Below, one piece after another: positions 20,199 to 40,322 of a stretch of 64,000 bases of DNA. The DNA comes from an uncultured Gammaproteobacteria bacterium (lineage in GTDB: Bacteria > Patescibacteriota > Microgenomatia > Daviesbacterales > UBA10151), in the NCBI GenBank assembly GCA_964392925.1, contig CAYMRP010000004.1, forward strand, positions 71,184 to 135,183, read 5' to 3'. The notes under the pieces were generated by a model, which searched no databases, had not been told where the DNA came from, and was given only the letters and a program-made list of their open reading frames with translations. Numbering within the stretch: position 1 is the first letter of the stretch; each line of letters opens with the position of its first letter. Made by a program: the position numbers and the translations under genes.

Positions 20199-21195
20199 AA
20201 CTTTATTAGTACAACAGCAACAGCTCCACTTTTTCTTGGTGATGCTTATGTCGTTATTCAGAAAAAAACAAACAGCCATCTCGCCTCTCCCAGCTTTAGT
20301 AAATGGCTTCGCTCTAGAGAGGGAGCTAAATTCAGGTGAGTTAATAAAGCCTCACAGAATAGGAATATACAAAAATGATCGCGGACAAAAAGGTGTAGTT
20401 AAATGGTGGAGTGGAAACAAAAAAACATTTGCAGCTATATCATTAGAGAATGAACTTTCAATGGCCAAATTATTAGAGAAATTAAACCATCGGACAATTA
20501 AAAATCAAAAACCAAATTTGACTCAAATTGGAAGTGCACATGTTATCACAAGTAGAGTAAATGAAAAAACAGTTTTTATAATGTCTGAATTTCATGAGGG
20601 AAAACTTCTTAGAGAAGTAGCAAAGGCGATCCAGATTAAAGAGTATAAACGGGCACTAAACTATTTAAGTAGTCTATCTGGCAATTTAACCCAAATTGAA
20701 ATTGACGCGCTTCCCAAGAGAACATATATTGATTACCTATTGCTTTACCCAGCTTTGTTAAGTGTCTCTATTCTAAGACAACCGAGATATTTTTGGACAT
20801 TTATAAAAGGCCTGCCCCCAGTACTTTTCTCACTTACAAAAATTAGAAAACATCCTTTAACCATAGTGCATCGAGATCTTCACACAATGAATATTATCTA
20901 TTCTCCATCTCGCACAACCATCATCGATCTACAGCGTGCTGTTCTAACTTACGGGTTATATGAGCTGGTAACAACTTTAGCAGTTGAATGGGACAACAAG
21001 GAATTACGTCAGGCGATTCTAGATTATATTTACTCATCATATTCGAATTCTTTAACTATCTTTAGAGGACTAATGATTTATTTTGCAACTCATGCTCTGA
21101 CTGCCAATAACTTGCCGGAGTATTATCTTAGCCGCTACAAAGCAATGCTTAACTTCGCGGTCTATAAATATTCCAACTATTATTTAAAAACATGA
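20191..21195 (+). CDS. Kinase-like phosphotransferase (APH/choline-kinase fold)
   Basis: Catalytic-loop-like HRDLHTMNII followed by IIDLQ (compare HGDLHxxN...IDxE of APH/ChoK). The ATG at 20191 overlaps the upstream stop by 8 nt. Confidence 0.45.
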   Translation: MSKTLLVQQQQLHFFLVMLMSLFRKKQTAISPLPALVNGFALERELNSGELIKPHRIGIYKNDRGQKGVVKWWSGNKKTFAAISLENELSMAKLLEKLNHRTIKNQKPNLTQIGSAHVITSRVNEKTVFIMSEFHEGKLLREVAKAIQIKEYKRALNYLSSLSGNLTQIEIDALPKRTYIDYLLLYPALLSVSILRQPRYFWTFIKGLPPVLFSLTKIRKHPLTIVHRDLHTMNIIYSPSRTTIIDLQRAVLTYGLYELVTTLAVEWDNKELRQAILDYIYSSYSNSLTIFRGLMIYFATHALTANNLPEYYLSRYKAMLNFAVYKYSNYYLKT

Positions 21196-22097
21196 AAACA
21201 AAAAAAACATTAACTATTTGTATACCCGCATTTAATGAGGCAGAAAATCTAAAAAAACTGCTTCCATCCCTACTCGCTCAAAAAAGGTCAACTTACATTC
21301 TTTCTAAAATAATAGTAGCCTCTGATGCAAGCACTGACACTATATATAATGTGGTAAAGAAAATAGGAAGCAAAAAAATAAATGTTATACATGGAAAGGA
21401 GAGAAAAGGTGTCGCTTATCGTCAAAATCAATTATTAGAAAAATCGACCTCTGATATTGTAGTTCTTCTTAATGCTGACATCGCTGTTATCGATTTCAGA
21501 TATATTGAGAAATTAGTTGCTCCAATTATAAAAAATAAAGCCGATATGACTTCATCAGCTCTCATGGAAACAAGTCCCCGCACTTTTTTCGAAAAAGCCC
21601 TATATACCAGCATGCAAGCAAAAAAATATGCTTTCAATAAATTCAAAGACGGAAATAATGTCTATACCTGTCGCGGACCTGCAAGAGCTTTTAGTAAAAA
21701 TCTCTATAAAATAATTCGTTTCCCTTCTGGTATCGGGGAGGATGCATACTCCTACCTTTTTACAATCAAACGAGGCATGCGATTTATCGCTGTTAAAAAC
21801 GCTACAGTCTACTATTCCTTGCCCACAACCTTTAAAGATCACAAAAGACAAAGCCTGCGTTACCTGAGTTCTAAATCAAATTTTACTTCCAAATTTGGCG
21901 AAAAGTTTGTCAAAGATGAATACAACCTTCCCCTAAAATATATATTGGAAGCAGCTCTGTTCTACTCAATGTCGAATCCTATCTATATGCTTTGCTACTT
22001 CATGATCTTCATGCAAATAAATCTTAGATCTCTATTCAAAAACACCCAGAGTGAAACATGGGAGGTGGCAACAAGTTCAAAGTTGCTAAATGTATAA
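21192..22097 (+). CDS. Family 2 glycosyltransferase
   Basis: LTICIPAFNEAENL...VASDASTD GT-A N-terminus. ATGA overlap with the upstream gene. Confidence 0.65.
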   Translation: MKTKKTLTICIPAFNEAENLKKLLPSLLAQKRSTYILSKIIVASDASTDTIYNVVKKIGSKKINVIHGKERKGVAYRQNQLLEKSTSDIVVLLNADIAVIDFRYIEKLVAPIIKNKADMTSSALMETSPRTFFEKALYTSMQAKKYAFNKFKDGNNVYTCRGPARAFSKNLYKIIRFPSGIGEDAYSYLFTIKRGMRFIAVKNATVYYSLPTTFKDHKRQSLRYLSSKSNFTSKFGEKFVKDEYNLPLKYILEAALFYSMSNPIYMLCYFMIFMQINLRSLFKNTQSETWEVATSSKLLNV

Positions 22098-32194: not shown

Positions 32195-32339
32195 AGTCCT
32201 AGCTGAGCTTGCAAGTTATATTTTAGGCTAGTCTAATACAACATCTAGTGTATTGACAGTTACCTAAGACAATATGTTAATCTTATTTTTACATTAATAC
32301 ATGTTGAGTCTTCAAGACCAATGAGGTACAATATGTTGT

Positions 32340-32792
32340 ATGTATTGCCCATTTTGCAGATCCTTACAGAGCAGTGTTATCGATAAAAGATCGGTAAAAG
32401 GCACTGGTGAAATTAGACGTAGAAGAGAGTGCCTGAAATGTAAAAGACGCTACACTACCTACGAACGGGCAAGCGCAGTCGAGTTATTAGTTATCAAGCG
32501 GGACGGTAGAAGACAGCCTTTTGATATTGAAAAACTCAGAATGGGACTTGAAAGATGTCTGGAAAAGCGTCCGGCTTATCAGAATCTAGATGTCATCCTG
32601 GCTAAACTTGAGCGTAAAATCCGCTCTAAGGAAGTAGCTGAGATTGACAGCAAGGTTATCGGTCGGGAAGTACTCGGAGAACTTAAAAAGCTGGACCAAA
32701 TAGCTTATTTAAGATTTGTTTCCGTTTACAGACAATTTAAGCAGGCCAGCGATTTTACAAAAGAACTCGCAAACCTGAAGCTAGAAGAGTAG
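32340..32792 (+). CDS. nrdR: Transcriptional repressor NrdR
   Basis: MYCPFC...CLKCKRRYTTYER zinc ribbon plus an ATP-cone, 150 aa. Sits directly upstream of the RNR gene. Confidence 0.85.
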   Translation: MYCPFCRSLQSSVIDKRSVKGTGEIRRRRECLKCKRRYTTYERASAVELLVIKRDGRRQPFDIEKLRMGLERCLEKRPAYQNLDVILAKLERKIRSKEVAEIDSKVIGREVLGELKKLDQIAYLRFVSVYRQFKQASDFTKELANLKLEE

Positions 32793-32859
32793 AGTTCGTT
32801 GAAAGCTTCGCTTCCAAAAGAACTTGCCAACTTAAAATTAGAAGAATACTAAAAATAAA

Positions 32860-35379
32860 ATGAAAAAACAAAATCAAAACAAAGCAGTCGCTCTACAAAT
32901 TCAAATCCCAGCAGATAACGCCAAAAAAGCCGAAATCAAAGATGTAAACAGAGCCTTTGATGAAGGAATACTTCCAAAAATCCGGACCAAAACTGAATTA
33001 GATGGTATCCGTCAAAAAGTCTTTATGGATCGCTACTCGCTTAAAGACGTTAACGGTGAACCAACCGAATTTATTCCAGAAGAAATGTGGCAAAGAGTCG
33101 CCGCTGGAATTGCTCAAATGGAAAAAACCCATCCTTTAAGAAAACATTGGGCAAAAGAGTTTTATTCTGCCATGGAAGGATTTAAATTCGTTCCAGCCGG
33201 CCGTATTCTCTCCGGTGCCGGCACGGGCTACGAAGTCACGTTCTTCAATTGCTATGTTATCCCTTCTCCCAAAGATTCAAGACAGGGCATCATGGAAAAC
33301 ATCACTCACACCGTAGAGATTCAGGCAAGAGGTGGAGGAGTTGGAATCAATCTTTCATCTTTAAGACCTCACGGTGCTCGTGTTAAAAAAGTTAACGGCA
33401 CATCCTCAGGACCAGTCTCTTGGGCAAAATTATATTCAGCCGCCAATCACGACGTTATTCAGCAGGGTGGTTCAAGACGCGGCGCTCTAATGCTCATGCT
33501 TCACGACTGGCATCCAGATGTTATTGAATTCATTCACGCCAAAGAAGATGGGGTTTCAATTCCCGGAGCTAATCTCTCAGTCTGTGTTTCTGATAAATTT
33601 ATGGAAGCCGTTCAAAAAGATGAAGAATGGGTAACTGTTTTTCCCGATGTTTCTGACCCTGAATATGATGAAAAATGGGATGGTGTTTTAGAAAATTGGA
33701 CAGAAATGGGTAAGCCAGTTATTGAATACACCAGAATGCCAGCTCGGGAAATTTGGGATCAAATCTGCACTTCAGCCTGGAAGTCCGCTGAGCCAGGTCT
33801 TCACTTCCTTGAGCGAAGCAATAAATGGGGAAATACTTGGTATTTTGAAAAATTACTCTCCACCAATCCTTGCGGTGAACAGCCTTTAGGTGAATGGGCA
33901 GTTTGTAACTTAGGCGCTATGAATCTCTCGGCTTTTGTTAATGATGAAGGGGTGTTCGATTATGACGATCTCGATGCTAAAGTCAGAGTCGCTATGAGAT
34001 TTATGGATAACGTTGTTGATGCCAACTATTATTTCTGGGAAGAGAACGAGAAAAAAGCTAAAGATATTAGAAGAACCGGCATCGGCACAATGGGCTTAGG
34101 TGATGCCTTAATCAAGATGAAACTTGCCTACGGTTCCGAAGATGCTCAACCAGTCATCGAAAAAATATATAAAACAATTAGAGATGCCTCTTATGACACA
34201 TCTTCTGACTTAGCCGCTGAAAAAGGCTCCTTCCCGATGTTTGACTCGGAAAAATATTTACAGGGCCATTTTATTAAACAGCTGCCTCAGCCAATCAGAA
34301 GCAAAATCCAAAATCAGGGCATTAGAAACGCTGTTATTTTAACTCAGGCTCCAACCGGAACTACCTCACTTCTAGCCGGTGTTTCCTCAGGAATCGAACC
34401 AGTTTTTGATTTCAAATTCACCAGAAAAGATCGAATAGGCGAGCACGTTATTTATCATCCGCTATACGAAGCCTGGATGAAGCAAAATCCTGGAGCTGAT
34501 CGCCCTCACTATTTCGTCGGCGCAAATGACATGAGTCCTATGGATCACGTTAAAGTCCAGGCTTTAATCCAGGGATACACTGATTCCTCGATTTCCAAAA
34601 CAGCCAACGCTCCTTTTGAATTCACAGTCGACCAGGTTAAAGAGCTTTATATGGAAGCATATAAATTAGGCTGCAAAGGGGTAACTTTCTTCAGAGACGG
34701 CTCAAGAACTGCCGTCTTAACTCATGGTGATGATAAAAAAACTGAGGTAGCCAAAGTAGAAATGAATTCTGCGACCACACAAGATACTGTCGTTTCTCGC
34801 CCAATGATCTTAAGAGGACGCACCTATAAAATGCAGACTCCAGTTGGAGAAGGTTTTATTACTATCAATCGTGATGAGCAAGATAATCCTTTTGAAGTCT
34901 TCATTACTGTTGGTAAAGGCGGAATGCACACAATGGCTGATGCTGAAGCAATGGGCCGTTTAGTTTCTCTATCCTTAAGACTCGCCAGAAGTGCTTCAAA
35001 CGCTGATCCTAAAACAGTTGCCCAAAAAATCTCGGCCCAACTCCGGGGAATTGGCGGCGCTTCCCACGTTGGATTCGGCAAAGATCGTGTTATGTCCTTA
35101 GCTGACGCTATTGCTAAAGCTTTAGCTGAAGATTTAGCAATAACCGCTGAAAATCCATCAGAAAAAATTGAAACTGTCCCTCTTAATTTAACAATGGAAA
35201 CAGAAACCGCTTCCCCAGTCGAAAATACTGGTGCAGATGATGTTATCACTTCTCAAATGCCGTTAATAACGGAATCTACTCAAAAAACCGCCGATCTTTG
35301 TCCGGAATGCGGACAGGCGAGTTTTGTATTCGAAGAGGGGTGCAAAAAATGCTACTCCTGCGGATACTCAATGTGTTAG
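32860..35379 (+). CDS. nrdJ: Ribonucleotide reductase, class II (adenosylcobalamin-dependent)
   Basis: NPCGEQPL thiyl-radical motif, ~840 aa, no adjacent NrdB. C-terminal CPECG...CKKCYSCGYSMC Cys cluster. cobO lies downstream. Confidence 0.75.
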   Translation: MKKQNQNKAVALQIQIPADNAKKAEIKDVNRAFDEGILPKIRTKTELDGIRQKVFMDRYSLKDVNGEPTEFIPEEMWQRVAAGIAQMEKTHPLRKHWAKEFYSAMEGFKFVPAGRILSGAGTGYEVTFFNCYVIPSPKDSRQGIMENITHTVEIQARGGGVGINLSSLRPHGARVKKVNGTSSGPVSWAKLYSAANHDVIQQGGSRRGALMLMLHDWHPDVIEFIHAKEDGVSIPGANLSVCVSDKFMEAVQKDEEWVTVFPDVSDPEYDEKWDGVLENWTEMGKPVIEYTRMPAREIWDQICTSAWKSAEPGLHFLERSNKWGNTWYFEKLLSTNPCGEQPLGEWAVCNLGAMNLSAFVNDEGVFDYDDLDAKVRVAMRFMDNVVDANYYFWEENEKKAKDIRRTGIGTMGLGDALIKMKLAYGSEDAQPVIEKIYKTIRDASYDTSSDLAAEKGSFPMFDSEKYLQGHFIKQLPQPIRSKIQNQGIRNAVILTQAPTGTTSLLAGVSSGIEPVFDFKFTRKDRIGEHVIYHPLYEAWMKQNPGADRPHYFVGANDMSPMDHVKVQALIQGYTDSSISKTANAPFEFTVDQVKELYMEAYKLGCKGVTFFRDGSRTAVLTHGDDKKTEVAKVEMNSATTQDTVVSRPMILRGRTYKMQTPVGEGFITINRDEQDNPFEVFITVGKGGMHTMADAEAMGRLVSLSLRLARSASNADPKTVAQKISAQLRGIGGASHVGFGKDRVMSLADAIAKALAEDLAITAENPSEKIETVPLNLTMETETASPVENTGADDVITSQMPLITESTQKTADLCPECGQASFVFEEGCKKCYSCGYSMC

Positions 35380-35508
35380 TATCGAAAAAATAAAGAAACT
35401 CCGAAGTTTGTGAAACTCAAACACTGTGCCGCAACCGTAATAGCCGGGTCGAAGGTTTCTTTGAAAGTGAATAAGTCTCACGAGCAATGAGGGTGATATT
35501 GAAAGTTA

Positions 35509-35540
35509 CCTTCTCCAAAAGAGAAGGTTTTTTTATTTTC
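35509..35540 (+). terminator. Rho-independent terminator downstream of nrdJ
   Basis: ccttctc-caaaa-gagaagg followed by ttttttt atttt. Confidence 0.7.
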
Positions 35541-35600
35541 AAGCGAAAGCGAGAAAACAAAGTTTCTTTAACCCCAATTCTCCAAAGACTCCAAAATAAT

Positions 35601-36776
35601 ATGATTCAAGATTTAGAACAATATAGAAATAGGCGTGAAGTAACGAAGGCACCAATAATTAGCGGTGCGAATGCTTTAAAGTTGCAACCGCTTGTTGAAA
35701 TGACACCTCAGCTTAGGGTTGTTACTGAGCTTCCTGCTCCGATTCAAATAGACTCGTTCTTGAAAAGAAAAGTAGAGCCTCTTGCTGAAATCCCTAAAAC
35801 TCCAGAAGTCTTGGCAAGGCAACAGATAATAAATAATACAGCTGAAGCAGAGCCAGAGCGATTTATAGAAAGAGAAATTGACCCAGATAAGCCCTGGAGC
35901 GCCTTTGGACAAGTCATGTTTATAAAAGAGCATATTATTGATGGAAAATCAGTAAAGAAAATCGCTGCGATAAGTATGGCTTATCCAGGTGGGGTAGGAA
36001 CTAGAATGGCAGGGGAAGTGTTGAGTGAAACCGTCGGAATTAACCAATCTGAATTTGTAAGCTGGAAAGGTCAATCTGAAGGGGGGATTATAGCCGCAAG
36101 CAAAGAAGTTCAAAATATTACTGATCAATTTGGACTTATGGACGACTTTATTCAAAACTCCGGTTCAGTAATTAAAAACCGTCATGCTCAAGGTGAGCAC
36201 GAGGTGGTCCAGCACTTCTTCGGCCTGCAAGACACAAGGAAAGAATTTCTAGATACTGTTAAAGAAGATGCAGCTGCAATTTTAGAAAACCCTAATTTCA
36301 CGAGTAGGTCAGCGTTTGATGAGCGTTACAAGGACAAAGGTATTTACTTAATTGAAGGTATAGTGGTCGATGGAGTATGGGAAGGTGGAGATCCTCAGGG
36401 AAAAAGAATGCGTCTTGTTGATATGGCCGCAGATGAAGCACATCTAAAATGGTTGCAATGGGCTGAAAAAACAGCAAGCGAGATGAAAGGTGACGGAGTA
36501 ATTGTTGATGCAGAAGATACTGAGACAGTAACAGACTGCGGTGGAAATAAAGGATGCTCTGAATTCTTTGAAAAAATGGAAGGCAGCACATCTGAACCAA
36601 CCATCGATCTGAGCCGCTACTCTGTATCCACTGGAATAGCAGGCTCTATTGCTGCATCCGCATATTCAAAATCTCAGATTTCTGGAGGCGGAGCTCCAGC
36701 TTATGATAGTGAAAATTGCTCATCCTGCGGCAAAGACCGCTATAAAGAAGATGGCTGCAAATGCTCTACTAATTAA
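35601..36776 (+). CDS. Hypothetical protein with a Cys-rich C-terminus
   Basis: No family recognised. CGGNKGCSEFF and CSSCGKDRYKEDGCKC clusters. The tracked start at 35487 would span the nrdJ terminator hairpin, so the ATG at 35601 is preferred. Confidence 0.4.
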   Translation: MIQDLEQYRNRREVTKAPIISGANALKLQPLVEMTPQLRVVTELPAPIQIDSFLKRKVEPLAEIPKTPEVLARQQIINNTAEAEPERFIEREIDPDKPWSAFGQVMFIKEHIIDGKSVKKIAAISMAYPGGVGTRMAGEVLSETVGINQSEFVSWKGQSEGGIIAASKEVQNITDQFGLMDDFIQNSGSVIKNRHAQGEHEVVQHFFGLQDTRKEFLDTVKEDAAAILENPNFTSRSAFDERYKDKGIYLIEGIVVDGVWEGGDPQGKRMRLVDMAADEAHLKWLQWAEKTASEMKGDGVIVDAEDTETVTDCGGNKGCSEFFEKMEGSTSEPTIDLSRYSVSTGIAGSIAASAYSKSQISGGGAPAYDSENCSSCGKDRYKEDGCKCSTN

Positions 36777-36778
36777 TA

Positions 36779-37333
36779 ATGAAACCCAGCAAAAAATTTA
36801 AAGAAACAAAGCACGGTTTAACAATTATCTACACCGGTGAAGGCAAAGGTAAAACTACTGCCGCCTTAGGTTTGGCTTTACGTGCCGCAGGCTACAAAAG
36901 AAAAGTCTTAATTATCCAATTTGGCAAAACCTGGTTTTCAGGTGAGCTGGAAGGCATCAAAATGTTAAAGCCTTACGTCAAAATTATTCAGGGCGGTTTA
37001 GGTTTCGTTAAAATCTTTGATGACCAATCCGATATAAAAGACCACAAAAAAATGGCTCAGCAAACTTATGACCTATTATATAAGGAAGTTGTATCCGGAA
37101 ATTATGATGTAGTTATAGCAGATGAAATAGTTGGAGCAATTGCTGGAAAAATGGTCACCCAAAAACAAGTTATTCAACTAATAAAAGACAAACCTAAAAC
37201 CCTCGACTTGGTTTTAACCGGCCACCACGGCAAGCCTTCACTATTCAAACACGCCGATTTAGTAACCGAAATGATGCCAATAAAACACCCCTTCGAAAAA
37301 GGCTTCCTAGCTAAACCAGGAGTAGACTACTAA
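36779..37333 (+). CDS. cobO: Cob(I)alamin/corrinoid adenosyltransferase (CobO/BtuR family)
   Basis: IYTGEGKGKTTAALGLALRAAGYKRKVLIIQFGK matches the CobA/CobO P-loop signature. 184 aa. Confidence 0.7.
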   Translation: MKPSKKFKETKHGLTIIYTGEGKGKTTAALGLALRAAGYKRKVLIIQFGKTWFSGELEGIKMLKPYVKIIQGGLGFVKIFDDQSDIKDHKKMAQQTYDLLYKEVVSGNYDVVIADEIVGAIAGKMVTQKQVIQLIKDKPKTLDLVLTGHHGKPSLFKHADLVTEMMPIKHPFEKGFLAKPGVDY

Positions 37334-37919: not shown

Positions 37920-40322
37920 ATGGATCCAATCTCTAACCCTATTAAACTAAGTAAAACTTTACCAGTAGGTCCTTTACGCGGCACTGTTATTTTCCCTGGC
38001 AACACAGTCCCAATCGTCTCCGCCCGTCCAAAATCACGCGCGGCCCTTGATGCTGCTTGGGCTACTAATCGTTTAGTAGTTTTCGTTGCCCAAAAGAATG
38101 AGCGCATCGATGATCCCAAAAAAGATGATTTATTCCAGGTAGGCACAGTTTGTTTAATCAAAAGAATTTTAAAAGTCGATAATGAATACCAACTTAGTGC
38201 CGAAGGCTTAACCCGTGTATTTATTAAAGGCTTCACCCAGACTGATAATTATTTAGAAGCTGAAATTGAAGAAATTCCTGAGCTATATGAGAGAAATGAA
38301 GAAACAGAAGCTTTAATTAGAACAGTTCGTGAGCAATTACGAAAATATCTGGAACTCAACGGAAATCCGTTATTTGATATGTCCTCACTTACAAACTGGC
38401 CGCTAATTTCCTCAAGCGATGATCCAAATCAGCTAGTTAATACAATTTGCCAAATGATCGAATTTAAAACAATCGATAAGCAGCAAATTTTAGAAATGGT
38501 TGCAGCCTCAGAAAGACTTCAAAGAGTCTCCGAATTACTCGCCAAAGAAATCAGAATTCTGGAAATTTCTCAAAAAATCTCTTCCCATACTCAGGAGAGA
38601 GTTTCCCGGATGACTAAAGAAGCTATTTTAAGAGAACAAATGCGCTCAATTGAAGAAGAGTTAGGTGAAGCTTCTGAAAATTCCGAAGTCCGCGAGTTTG
38701 AACTTAAGATCCGCAAAGCCAGCATGCCTAAAGAAGTTCGTGATAAAGCTAATAAAGAGCTTGGTCGTTTGGCAAAAATGTCCTCGTATAATCCTGAAGC
38801 TGCCTATATTAGAAATTACATTGAATGGTTAACTGATTTGCCTTGGAAAGGTGCACCCAAAACAAAAATCGATATGAAAAAAGCTGAAAAAGTTTTGGAT
38901 GCCGAGCATTACGGACTAAAAAAAGTTAAAGAGCGAATTATGGAATACCTAGCCGTTTATAAATTATCAGGCAAACTCCACGGCCCAATCTTATGTTTCG
39001 CTGGACCTCCGGGTACTGGAAAAACCTCAATCGGAAAATCAATCGCCAAAGCCTTAGGCCGAAAGTTTGTTAAAGTTTCTCTCGGTGGTATCAGAGACGA
39101 AGCTGAAATCAGAGGTCACAGAAGAACCTACGTTGGTTCTATGCCAGGACGCATGATCCAATCAGTCAAACAAGCTGGAACCTCAAATCCGGTCTTTATG
39201 TTAGACGAAATTGATAAAATCGGAGCCGATTACCGAGGTGATCCTTCAGCAGCCTTGCTTGAAGCGCTTGATCCTGAACAAAATCATTCCTTCTCAGATC
39301 ATTATTTAGAAGTGCCTTACGATTTGTCTAATGTTATGTTTATAACCACAGCAAACATGCTCGATACCATTCCTCCGGCACTGCGTGATCGTCTCGAAGT
39401 CATTACTTATCCAGGCTATACCAGAGATGAAAAATTTAATATCGCTAAGAACCATCTATTACCAAAAGTAATCGAGTCTCACGGACTAAAAAATTCTAAA
39501 ATCAAACTCGATTTTGATGAAAGCGCTATTTATCAGGTTATCGATGGCTACACTCGTGAAGCCGGAGTCAGAAGTTTAGAGCGGGAGCTCTCCGCAGTAA
39601 TTAGAAAAATCGCCAGAAAAATCGCTGAAGGCGAAATTAAATCTAGCTATCCGGTCACTGAAGAAGTTGTCAGAAAATTATTAGGTCCTGTTAAATTCTT
39701 GCCAGAGCTCGCTGAAATTGAAGATATGATCGGCGCTTCGACTGGCCTCGCTTGGAGTGAAGTTGGCGGATCAATTATGTTTATCGAGGTTACTTTAATG
39801 CCTGGTAAAGGTGCAATTCAATTAACAGGTCAATTAGGAGACGTTATGAAAGAATCAGCTCAAGCTGCAATGTCATATGTCCGTTCAAGTTGGGCAGCTC
39901 TAGGCTTAAATGAAAAATTCTTCCATAAAGTCGATGTTCACGTCCACGTTCCTGAAGGCGCAGTTCCTAAAGACGGTCCCTCTGCTGGAATCGCTTTAAC
40001 TACCGCTATTGTTTCAGCTTTTACTAAAATCCCTGTTAAAAAAGACATCGCCATGACCGGAGAAGTTACTTTAAGAGGTCGGGTTCTAGAAATCGGCGGC
40101 TTAAAAGAAAAAGTCCTCGCTGCCCACAGGGCTGGTGTTAAAGATATTATTATTCCTGAAAACAATAAAAAGGATTTGGAAGATATTCCAGAACATATTG
40201 TTGCTGATCTAAAATTCCACACAGTCAAGCATATGGACCAGGTACTGGAAATCGCTCTAATCAGAAATCCTTTTCCTAAAGCCAAGAAAATTCATTCAAC
40301 CCTTCCTCCAGCTTTTGCTTAA
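37920..40322 (+). CDS. lon: ATP-dependent Lon protease
   Basis: Walker [14 protein letters not shown], catalytic Ser in [10 protein letters not shown], Lys in [20 protein letters not shown]. 800 aa. Confidence 0.9.

What the first reader, a model, noticed from the sequence alone, without database searches (positions are those of the whole stretch)
32340..37333. nrdR-nrdJ-(unknown Cys-rich protein)-cobO cluster
The NrdR repressor, a class II B12-dependent RNR, a 391-aa protein of unknown function with two Cys clusters, and the corrinoid adenosyltransferase CobO lie in a row on one strand. CobO regenerates AdoCbl for NrdJ. The unknown protein sits between them. It follows a clean nrdJ terminator, and only a 2-bp gap separates its stop from cobO, so it is likely co-transcribed with cobO. 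It could be a corrinoid-handling or reductase partner, such as a cob(II)alamin reductase or a B12 chaperone.
Basis: partly seen in the sequence, partly recalled or inferred. Interest (0 to 1): 0.55.

Follow-up and report, generated by a model that had tools for sequence, protein, structure and literature searches.

The report
B12-riboswitch salvage operon, new protein
In an ultra-small (Patescibacteria) bacterium, the "terminator" after the B12-dependent ribonucleotide reductase gene belongs to an unannotated vitamin-B12 riboswitch, which controls the adenosyltransferase CobO and an uncharacterised, fast-evolving cysteine-tailed protein that is probably a new B12-handling factor.

Summary
The gene row is real: nrdR, nrdJ, a 391-aa ORF and cobO lie on the + strand, and NrdR boxes sit upstream of nrdR. 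The "clean nrdJ terminator" (35508-35535) follows a P13 hairpin and a predicted antiterminator, so I read it as the riboswitch's expression platform. The window aptamer scores just under Rfam's cut-off (34.1 vs 36.5 bits). It recurs at this position in every related locus, and 7 of 8 P1 pairs show compensatory changes.

The unknown protein has no Pfam, NCBIfam, PADLOC or PDB match. Its family has only 42 representatives among 1.84 billion proteins. The core is modelled confidently (pLDDT 93) but has no Foldseek neighbour. In 11 of 12 distinct loci a family member lies behind a cobalamin riboswitch. There are five operon designs: next to CobO, next to the unrelated PduO-type adenosyltransferase (with or without DUF4430/DUF6580 genes), or alone behind riboswitches that pass Rfam's cut-off.

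Membership of the B12 regulon is well supported. The biochemical role is inferred. My best guess is a cytoplasmic cobalamin processing, reduction or hand-off partner of the adenosyltransferase, working through an invariant Cys and a tethered Cys4 knuckle.

The parts
32236..32251 (+). NrdR box 1 (ATACAACATCTAGTGT), abutting a TTGACA -35 hexamer at 32253-32258
   Evidence: Matches 13/16 of the consensus acaCwAtATaTwGtgt. The same position scores 14-16/16 in related loci L001, L004, L005, L006, L010 and L024.
32267..32282 (+). NrdR box 2 (AGACAATATGTTAATC), 31 bp after box 1, over the -10 region
   Evidence: Scores 10-11/16. GACAATATG is conserved in six of the relatives (L005 reads CCAATATG). 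The 31-bp spacing is typical of tandem NrdR boxes (my knowledge of Rodionov & Gelfand 2005).
32294..32341 (+). Second pair of NrdR-like boxes (32294-32309, weak, 10/16; 32326-32341, GTACAATATGTTGTAT, 12/16), the latter overlapping the nrdR start codon
   Evidence: The box at -14 is conserved in L001, L004, L005, L006 and L010.
32340..32792 (+). nrdR (150 aa), dATP/ATP-sensing repressor of RNR genes
   Evidence: Pfam Zn_ribbon_NrdR and ATP-cone.
32860..35379 (+). nrdJ (839 aa), class II AdoCbl-dependent ribonucleotide reductase. Its C-terminal Cys-rich domain ends CPECGx10CKKCYSCGYSMC.
   Evidence: Pfam RNR barrel 1.5e-120, lgN and TSCPD. The six-Cys array resembles that of the NrdJd CRD (PMC5704485).
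35390..35467 (+). Cobalamin riboswitch aptamer. P1 is 35392-35399 paired with 35455-35462. The L5-type hairpin is 35406-35422. The B12-box region is 35424-35454.
   Evidence: Rfam AdoCbl-II 34.1 bits, E 2.9e-5, against a cut-off of 36.5. Clan hits occur at the same place in 6/6 relatives. P1 has compensatory changes in 7 of 8 pairs; 97% of cells are paired versus 30-47% when slid. My own model R1 gives 98.6 bits, expected because the window sequence was used to build it.
35477..35491 (+). P13-type hairpin CTCA-CGAGCAA-TGAG, with the conserved loop CGAGCA(A)
   Evidence: Present in all the related riboswitch loci listed. It matches the 3' hairpin of Rfam model RF01482 in L004, L005 and L010.
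35489..35513 (+). Predicted antiterminator: GAGGGTGAT (35489-35497) pairs with GTTACCTTC (35505-35513). It shares bases with both P13 and the terminator.
   Evidence: This is the minimum-free-energy structure when the transcript ends at 35519. An equivalent GGGTAAA/TTTACCC pairing can be read in L004, L006 and L009.
35508..35535 (+). Intrinsic terminator (ACCTTCTC-CAAAA-GAGAAGGT plus T7), read as the riboswitch expression platform. It also ends nrdJ transcripts.
   Evidence: A hairpin plus U-run follows the aptamer in nearly every related locus that extends that far, some with different stem sequences.
35601..36776 (+). Unknown protein (391 aa). N-terminal motif MIQDLEQYRNRR..GANAL, a Cys-free core (about residues 85-310), invariant C313 (36537-36539) in TETVTDCGG, C319, a low-complexity linker, and a C-terminal CxxC-x9-CxC knuckle (36717-36764).
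   Evidence: family and conserved residues. (core pLDDT 93.3). (no known family).
36779..37333 (+). cobO/btuR (184 aa), CobA-type ATP:cob(I)alamin adenosyltransferase, 2 bp after the unknown gene
   Evidence: PF02572 3.2e-51. Junction sequence.

Best explanation
The locus holds two regulatory units.

(1) nrdR-nrdJ is controlled by NrdR boxes that overlap the promoter region.

(2) Twelve bases after the nrdJ stop codon, a compact cobalamin riboswitch begins. It consists of an aptamer, a P13 hairpin, an antiterminator and a terminator, and it controls the unknown gene plus cobO.
- When cobalamin is bound, the P13 side of the switch is stabilised. The terminator forms, and transcripts (including those arriving from nrdJ) stop at 35535.
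- When cobalamin is scarce, the antiterminator forms and the two genes are expressed.

The pair is a B12-salvage module for an organism whose evident B12 client is NrdJ. CobO makes AdoCbl. The unknown protein is a cytoplasmic cobalamin-handling partner of the adenosyltransferase. It most likely prepares or delivers the substrate by removing the upper ligand, reducing cob(III)/cob(II)alamin, or handing off the cofactor. It would do so through its invariant Cys313 and a flexible tail ending in a Cys4 metal knuckle that resembles the electron-shuttling tail of NrdJ.

What is shown and what is inferred:
- Shown: the gene identities, the riboswitch, and the family's association with the B12 regulon.
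- Inferred: the direction of switching, the transcript origin, and the biochemical role.
For: Riboswitch:
- Searches give cobalamin-clan hits at the nrdJ-X spacer in the window and in 6/6 relatives.
- One search shows P1 covariation.
- One search finds the same aptamer core in 17 Patescibacteria genome loci. Where the upstream sequence is present and recognisable it lies just 3' of nrdJ, in 14 of those 17.
- There it precedes B12 genes: PduO-type adenosyltransferase (PF01923, 9.8e-59), putative transcobalamin-like binders, DUF6580-like membrane proteins and a BtuF-like protein.
- predicts the antiterminator/terminator alternative.

Family-B12 link, seen in five different operon designs:
- Riboswitch-X-cobO (window, L001, L004, L005, L006, L009, L010).
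- nrdJ-riboswitch-DUF4430-DUF6580-PduO-X (L029; riboswitch 58.9 bits with R1). L032 has the same genes, with its riboswitch cut by the contig end.
- nrdJ-riboswitch-PduO-DUF5522-X (L036).
- Riboswitch-X alone: L033 with AdoCbl-II at 56.2 bits against a cut-off of 36.5.
- Riboswitch-X alone: L035 with RF00174 at 39.6 bits against 31.5.
- Pairing with two non-homologous adenosyltransferases argues for a functional link rather than inherited synteny.

Thiol chemistry:
- All six Cys lie in the last 80 residues.
- C313 is invariant across 39-47 sequences, and C376 and C386 are at least 90% conserved.
- The tail is a disordered linker plus a knuckle, like the NrdJ CRD tail, whose Cys array shuttles electrons (PMC5704485).
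Against: - No cofactor-binding or catalytic domain is recognisable.
- No structural neighbour was found.
- One family member (L030/L031) has no riboswitch and no B12 gene nearby.
- The centre of the protein evolves far faster than cobO or nrdJ: 28.5% identity against 99% and 91% in L006. In close relatives the slot is filled by unrelated proteins. That is unusual for a housekeeping enzyme.
- The window aptamer is below Rfam's gathering score.
- Ligand binding and the OFF direction have not been tested.
- Riboswitch loci were collected with a pattern taken from this aptamer, so conservation of its core is partly by construction.
Confidence: 0.45

Rival explanations
1. NrdJ-directed factor. The protein serves the reductase rather than the adenosyltransferase. 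It could be a stand-alone electron-relay or repair partner that uses an NrdJ-CRD-like Cys tail, or it could load scarce AdoCbl onto NrdJ.
For: - The gene lies immediately after nrdJ across the lineage.
- Its tail resembles the NrdJ tail. The unrelated slot proteins of L014 and L024 carry CxxC-x9-CxxCxxC, the same spacing as the first five Cys of the S. nassauensis CRD.
- The native reductant of the CRD is unknown (PMC5704485).
- A weak colinear HMM similarity to the TSCPD region and tail of NrdJ was seen.
Against: - hhalign against the NrdJ C-terminal region gives only 31% and 3.6% probability.
- A reductant for NrdJ should be made when B12 is present, not repressed by it.
- In L033 and L035 the gene stands alone, with no adjacent nrdJ.
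Confidence: 0.15
2. B12-sparing or backup function. Like metE or nrdAB in other bacteria, the gene is repressed by B12 because it provides an activity needed only when B12 is lacking, unrelated to handling the cofactor.
For: - The stand-alone riboswitch-X units in L033 and L035 show the classic layout of B12-independent isozymes.
- No corrinoid-binding motif is detectable.
Against: - The gene is repeatedly co-operonic with adenosyltransferases and putative uptake genes.
- It does not resemble any RNR or other enzyme.
- NrdJ is the only evident B12 client, and a 391-aa protein without known radical machinery cannot replace it.
Confidence: 0.15
3. Hitch-hiking variable gene. This would be a fast-evolving protein of unrelated role (conflict, surface or host interaction, regulated proteolysis substrate) that merely occupies a permissive slot. 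Its link to B12 would be incidental.
For: - The centre is highly variable while the termini are conserved, and close relatives show slot replacement.
- L030 has no B12 context.
- Many members end in an ssrA-like ...KAA or ...QAA.
Against: - 11 of 12 distinct loci lie behind a cobalamin riboswitch, in five different architectures.
- There are no PADLOC hits, no signal peptide or membrane segment (sequence), and no viral structural match.
Confidence: 0.1

Closest known systems
Cobalamin riboswitches of clan CL00101, especially the short class (Rfam RF01689, AdoCbl-II / 'AdoCbl-variant') with an L5-L13 kissing-loop platform
   Same: - The B12-box core, the junction hairpins and a P13 hairpin with a conserved loop.
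- B12 uptake and adenosylation genes lie downstream.
- Relatives reach the Rfam cut-offs (L033 56.2 bits, L035 39.6 bits).
   Different: - The window copy and its closest relatives score 27-41 bits, below the cut-offs.
- P1 and P2 are merged into one 8-bp helix.
- The platform is an intrinsic terminator coupled through P13, rather than only ribosome-binding-site sequestration.
- It sits directly after the stop codon of nrdJ, so the same hairpin also ends the nrdJ transcript.
Eukaryotic cobalamin-processing proteins MMACHC (CblC) and MMADHC (CblD), which act upstream of the adenosyltransferase MMAB
   Same: - The proposed position in the pathway, between uptake and adenosylation.
- Reliance on thiol chemistry, or a Cys-cobalt contact, in those proteins (my knowledge).
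- Genomic pairing with a PduO/MMAB-type transferase in L029, L032 and L036.
   Different: - No sequence similarity; no Pfam MMACHC hit.
- No structural match.
- No flavin site is evident.
- The function here is untested.
Bacterial cobalamin reductase partners of adenosyltransferases (PduS with PduO; FldA/Fpr with CobA; CobR)
   Same: They are encoded with, or work with, an adenosyltransferase to supply cob(I)alamin (my knowledge).
   Different: Those are flavoproteins or Fe-S flavoproteins. This family shows no such domain. Its only candidate redox elements are cysteines.
C-terminal Cys-rich domain (CRD) of class II RNR NrdJd, and the stand-alone NrdJb
   Same: A flexible linker that ends in a CxxC...C..C array. 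In NrdJd this array binds zinc and shuttles electrons (PMC5704485).
   Different: - Four Cys here instead of six.
- Homology of the body to the CRD/TSCPD region is not supported (hhalign 31% and 3.6%).

Membership tests
Cobalamin riboswitch (Rfam clan CL00101) | Score at or above the family gathering threshold | tested here: not met
   The window scores 34.1 bits against 36.5 for RF01689. Relatives L033 (56.2 vs 36.5) and L035 (39.6 vs 31.5 for RF00174) do pass.
Cobalamin riboswitch (Rfam clan CL00101) | Conserved secondary structure supported by covariation | tested here: met
   P1 has compensatory changes in 7 of 8 pairs and the L5 hairpin in 2 of 5. 97% of cells are paired versus 30-47% in slid controls, and 0/500 shuffles reach the observed score. 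The inner helices are invariant, partly by ascertainment.
Cobalamin riboswitch (Rfam clan CL00101) | Controls B12-related genes through an expression platform | tested here: met
   - Terminator and predicted antiterminator.
- Downstream genes are cobO, PduO-type transferase, DUF4430, DUF6580 and BtuF-like in 20+ loci.
Cobalamin riboswitch (Rfam clan CL00101) | Binds a cobalamin and switches | not testable with these tools
   Needs in-line probing, ITC or in vitro termination assays.
NrdR regulon | Tandem 16-bp NrdR boxes about 31-32 bp apart in the promoter region | tested here: met
   Boxes lie at -104, -73, -46 and -14 from the nrdR start. They score 13/16 and 12/16 in the window and up to 16/16 in relatives. 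There is none in the nrdR-nrdJ spacer.
CobA/CobO/BtuR adenosyltransferase (PF02572) | Full-length match above the Pfam cut-off | tested here: met
   174.4 bits against 25.7, covering profile positions 2-172 of 172.
Class II RNR (NrdJ) with Cys-rich C-terminal domain | RNR barrel plus TSCPD region plus a terminal six-Cys array | tested here: met
   Pfam. The tail is C-x2-C-x10-C-x2-C-x2-C-x4-C, against C-x2-C-x9-C-x2-C-x2-C-x5-C in S. nassauensis.
Unknown protein as MMACHC/CblC, PduS, CobR or B12-binding-domain protein | Sequence match to the family model | tested here: not met
   - No Pfam family at E <= 0.01 for the window protein.
- Nothing consistent for 39 members at E <= 1.
- No NCBIfam hit.
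- No PDB sequence hit better than E 0.04.
Unknown protein as stand-alone NrdJ CRD/TSCPD paralogue | Profile-profile homology to the NrdJ C-terminal region | tested here: inconclusive
   A weak colinear HMM hit (E 0.01 for the TSCPD stretch). hhalign probability is only 31% (A2) and 3.6% (A3).
Unknown protein as member of any known fold | Structural neighbour of the confident core model | tested here: not met
Anti-phage defence protein (PADLOC) | Match to a defence-system model | tested here: not met
   No hit at E <= 0.1 for five diverse members.

The most novel reading that the evidence does not exclude
The family is a new kind of cobalamin-trafficking protein, a bacterial functional counterpart of CblC/CblD. 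It is built on a previously unseen fold, ligates or processes the cofactor through an invariant cysteine, and is recharged through an RNR-CRD-like tethered Cys knuckle. It would have evolved in ultra-small symbionts that must convert whatever corrinoid they scavenge into AdoCbl for their only B12 enzyme. The unrelated proteins that fill the same slot in sister lineages would be analogous solutions, and the rapid turnover would reflect adaptation to different corrinoid supplies.
Probability: 0.3. Interest if true: 0.8.

Novelty: new variant of a known kind. Interest (0 to 1): 0.62.

Why it matters
How bacteria turn scavenged cobalamins (cyano-, hydroxo-, methyl-) into AdoCbl between uptake and adenosylation is only partly known. 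In Patescibacteria, which lack most cofactor pathways, it is essentially unknown.

- This locus gives a clean, testable candidate: a small soluble protein that B12 riboswitches control in five different operon designs and that pairs with both kinds of adenosyltransferase.
- Rfam thresholds miss a compact riboswitch variant that is widespread in Microgenomates.
- One hairpin serves both as the end of the nrdJ transcript and as a B12-conditional gate. This may tie expression of salvage genes to the reductase that needs the cofactor.
- The tail's similarity to the NrdJ Cys-rich domain, whose physiological electron donor is unknown, offers a second angle on that open question.

Tried and rejected
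- **Longer start codon.** The 429-aa reading (start 35487) is rejected. The extension is not conserved and overlaps the terminator.
- **Sequence libraries.** Pfam, NCBIfam, PADLOC and PDB-sequence searches of the window protein and of up to 39 members found nothing meaningful, only weak zinc-ribbon hits on the tail.
- **Homology to the NrdJ CRD/TSCPD region.** A suggestive HMM hit was not confirmed by hhalign.
- **Homology between the window family and the slot proteins of Levybacteria-type and Daviesbacteria-type loci.** Only the C-terminal knuckle aligns.
- **Protein-based genome scans.** The alignment had no usable conserved stretch, and the single-protein scan gave no hit. The riboswitch DNA pattern worked instead.
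- **Accessory small ORFs flanking family members.** They share no similarity with one another.
- **B12 uptake genes elsewhere in the window.** tblastn with DUF4430, DUF6580 and BtuF-like queries found nothing.
- **A second riboswitch copy in the window.** None was found.
- **The 15/16 NrdR-like box at 21337.** It lies inside a glycosyltransferase ORF and is probably chance.
- **Literature.** Searches found no prior description of this family or arrangement.
- **Read-through from nrdJ as the only transcript source.** This is not established. An extended -10-like TGTTAGTAT overlaps the nrdJ stop codon at 35374-35382. Clearer promoter-like hexamers precede the aptamer in L029 and L033 (read).


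Full report
**1. Observation**

- nrdR, 32340-32792: Zn_ribbon_NrdR and ATP-cone.
- nrdJ, 32860-35379: RNR all-alpha and barrel domains, 1.5e-120, plus TSCPD.
- An ORF with no Pfam match.
- cobO, 36779-37333: PF02572, 3.2e-51.

The unknown protein starts at 35601. Its N-terminus MIQDLEQYRNRR..GANAL is conserved in homologues. The alternative start at 35487 would read through a terminator.

All six cysteines lie in the last 80 residues: C313 and C319 (DCGGNKGC), and C373, C376, C386 and C388 (CSSCGKDRYKEDGCKC). Two bases separate the stop codon from the cobO ATG.

The window comes from a Patescibacteria (Microgenomates, Daviesbacteria-like) genome. The closest named records, with 85-99% identical CobO and Lon, are Daviesbacteria and 'Patescibacteria group' MAGs.

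**2.

A permissive Rfam scan finds an AdoCbl-II (RF01689) match at 35392-35462. It scores 34.1 bits, E 2.9e-5, just under the 36.5-bit cut-off. That explains why the default scan was silent.

Cobalamin-clan matches of 27-41 bits occupy the same spacer in all six related loci tested. An exact-pattern scan with the aptamer core found 17 further loci, all in Patescibacteria MAGs. Some carry a 'Gammaproteobacteria' title that looks wrong.

On 21 distinct sequences:
- The outer helix has compensatory changes in 7 of 8 pairs.
- 97% of cells pair, against 30-47% when the partner is slid.
- No shuffle out of 500 reaches the observed covariation score.
- The inner helices are invariant, but that is partly because I selected loci on that core.

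Downstream of the aptamer come three elements:
- A hairpin with the conserved loop CGAGCA(A), at 35477-35491.
- A predicted antiterminator, 35489-35497 paired with 35505-35513. It is the minimum-energy fold of the nascent transcript before the terminator's 3' arm exists.
- The terminator at 35508-35535.

So I read the 'clean nrdJ terminator' as the riboswitch's expression platform. Because the aptamer starts 12 nt after the nrdJ stop codon, the same hairpin also ends nrdJ transcripts.

Transcription may enter from nrdJ, or from a weak extended -10 element overlapping the stop codon. I cannot tell which. Clearer promoter-like hexamers precede the aptamer in L029 and L033.

**3. NrdR control**

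Four NrdR-like boxes lie upstream of nrdR, at -104, -73, -46 and -14. They form two pairs, 31 and 32 bp apart. The first abuts a TTGACA hexamer.
- The boxes at -104 and -14 score 13/16 and 12/16 in the window.
- The -104 box scores 14-16/16 at the same position in relatives.
- The nrdR-nrdJ spacer has none, and in some relatives the two genes overlap. So nrdJ depends on the nrdR promoter region.

**4. The unknown protein**

The family is rare and unannotated.
- 18 clusters were found among 5.8 billion proteins.
- A profile search found 42 representatives among 1.84 billion.
- No Pfam, NCBIfam, PADLOC or PDB-sequence match exists for the window protein or for diverse members. The only signals are weak zinc-ribbon hits on the tail.

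Across 39-47 members, very few positions are fixed:
- F102 and C313 are invariant.
- G115, R213, A238, G297, V310, C376 and C386 are at least 90% conserved.

**5.

Close homologues all show nrdR-nrdJ-riboswitch-X-(variable small ORF)-cobO-lon. These genomes are syntenic overall, so that alone is weak evidence. The more distant members are the informative ones.

| Locus (member) | Arrangement |
|---|---|
| L029 (P0019) | nrdJ - riboswitch (58.9 bits with my model) - DUF4430 - DUF6580 - PduO-type adenosyltransferase - X |
| L032 (P0036) | DUF4430 - DUF6580 - PduO - X; riboswitch cut by the contig end |
| L036 (P0025) | nrdR - nrdJ - riboswitch - PduO - DUF5522 - X |
| L033 (P0045) | X alone, behind an AdoCbl-II riboswitch of 56.2 bits |
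| L035 (P0047) | X alone, behind a Cobalamin (RF00174) riboswitch of 39.6 bits (cut-off 31.5) |
| L030/L031 (P0040) | No riboswitch and no B12 gene |

So 11 of 12 distinct loci place the family inside a cobalamin-riboswitch unit, in five designs. The family is also paired with two non-homologous adenosyltransferases. I take membership of the B12 regulon as well supported, at about 0.85.

**6. The same riboswitch elsewhere**

In other Microgenomates the element still sits just after nrdJ but drives different cargo.
- Levybacteria-type loci: PduO plus a 360-440-aa Cys-tailed protein.
- Woykebacteria-type loci and a related unnamed locus (L025): a DUF4430-like protein, an alpha-alpha-toroid protein, a DUF6580-like membrane protein and a BtuF-like protein, which look like an uptake set.
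- The Curtissbacteria locus (L028): only the small secreted protein and the DUF6580-like membrane protein.

This confirms that the RNA is a B12 regulator. It also shows that its position after nrdJ is conserved independently of what follows.

**7. A fast-changing slot**

- Between the window and L006, NrdJ, CobO and Lon are 91%, 99% and 97% identical, but X is only 28.5% identical.
- At DNA level only the first 90 or so and last 110 or so bases of the gene still align.
- In Daviesbacteria L014, L019 and L024 (CobO 85-90%, Lon 93-99% identical), the slot holds 452-479-aa proteins with no detectable relation to X, apart from the terminal knuckle.
- All slot proteins share one plan: a body with few or no cysteines, a Cys-Gly motif, a low-complexity linker and a terminal Cys array.
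- In L014 and L024 that array is CxxC-x9-CxxCxxC. This is the spacing of the first five cysteines of the NrdJd Cys-rich domain, which binds zinc and shuttles electrons and whose native reductant is unknown (PMC5704485).
- Flanking synonymous sites are near saturation (about 80% nucleotide identity). I therefore cannot separate rapid divergence from cassette exchange.

**8. Mechanism**

Shown:
- The gene identities.
- The riboswitch and its platform elements.
- The regulon association.

Inferred:
- Cobalamin binding favours the terminator, making this an OFF switch.
- The unit is a salvage module for NrdJ.
- X acts with the adenosyltransferase on the cofactor. My preferred reading is upper-ligand removal, reduction, or hand-off, using C313 and the tethered Cys4 knuckle.

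I put about 0.45 on that full statement. The rivals are:
- An NrdJ-directed relay or loading factor (0.15).
- A B12-sparing function unrelated to the cofactor (0.15).
- A hitch-hiking variable gene (0.10).

**9. Comparison and novelty**

The operon logic is a known kind: a B12 riboswitch repressing salvage genes. The new elements are:
- A sub-threshold compact riboswitch variant fused to the end of nrdJ.
- A Patescibacteria-restricted protein family with no known fold or domain that tracks adenosyltransferases.
- The striking turnover of that slot.

No paper in the searchable library describes them. I rate this as a new variant of a known kind, with interest 0.62. If X proves to be a new class of cobalamin-processing protein, it would deserve about 0.8.

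Noticed in passing
window 32793-32850: The nrdR-nrdJ spacer repeats the last ~36 nt of nrdR (KELANLKLEE* then KELANLKLEEY*). This is a small tandem duplication of the gene's 3' end.
   Followed up: no
window 35571-35600 (also L001, L006, L009, L019, L024): Between the terminator and the start codon of the unknown gene lies a conserved C-rich leader motif (AACCCCAA..CTCC..AGAC.C.AAAAT), with no Shine-Dalgarno sequence. It may be a second regulatory or translation element.
   Followed up: no
window 21337-21352: ACACTATATATAATGT matches the NrdR-box consensus at 15/16, but it lies inside a glycosyltransferase ORF (21192-22097). Probably chance.
   Followed up: partly
L014, L019, L024 (slot between riboswitch and cobO); L013, L015, L022, L026 (after PduO): Proteins unrelated in sequence occupy the same operon position as the unknown protein. 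Each has a Cys-Gly motif, a low-complexity linker and a terminal Cys array. In L014 and L024 the array has the spacing of the NrdJ Cys-rich domain.
   Followed up: partly
C-termini of family members (P0019, P0022, P0023, P0032, P0046, P0012, P0016) and of the L014, L024 and L026 slot proteins: Many end in ...KAA, ...QAA or ...LAA, resembling an ssrA-type degradation tag. lon lies two genes downstream in the window lineage (37920-40322). The window protein itself ends ...CSTN.
   Followed up: no
L035 5543-5643: A 33-aa Cys-rich mini-ORF (MAEKESKECKVCGCECEDCQCMKIQGCIRCGCQ) sits just upstream of the Cobalamin riboswitch that precedes a family member.
   Followed up: no
L036 5817-5999: A 60-aa DUF5522 protein (CCTNGCRHCPY motif) is inserted between the PduO-type adenosyltransferase and the family member.
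   Followed up: no
L017, L023, L025, L028: Behind the same riboswitch, L017, L023 and L025 carry a DUF4430-like small secreted protein and a separate alpha-alpha-toroid protein (which look like the two halves of a transcobalamin-type binder), plus a DUF6580-like membrane protein. L017 and L025 also carry a BtuF-like protein. L028 shows only the small secreted protein and the membrane protein. This looks like a candidate Patescibacteria B12 uptake set.
   Followed up: partly
L016, L019, L020, L025 (record titles): These MAG records are titled 'uncultured Gammaproteobacteria', yet they carry the Patescibacteria-type locus. L019 and L020 encode proteins 88-99% identical to those of this window, which otherwise resembles Daviesbacteria MAGs. 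The taxonomic labels look wrong.
   Followed up: no
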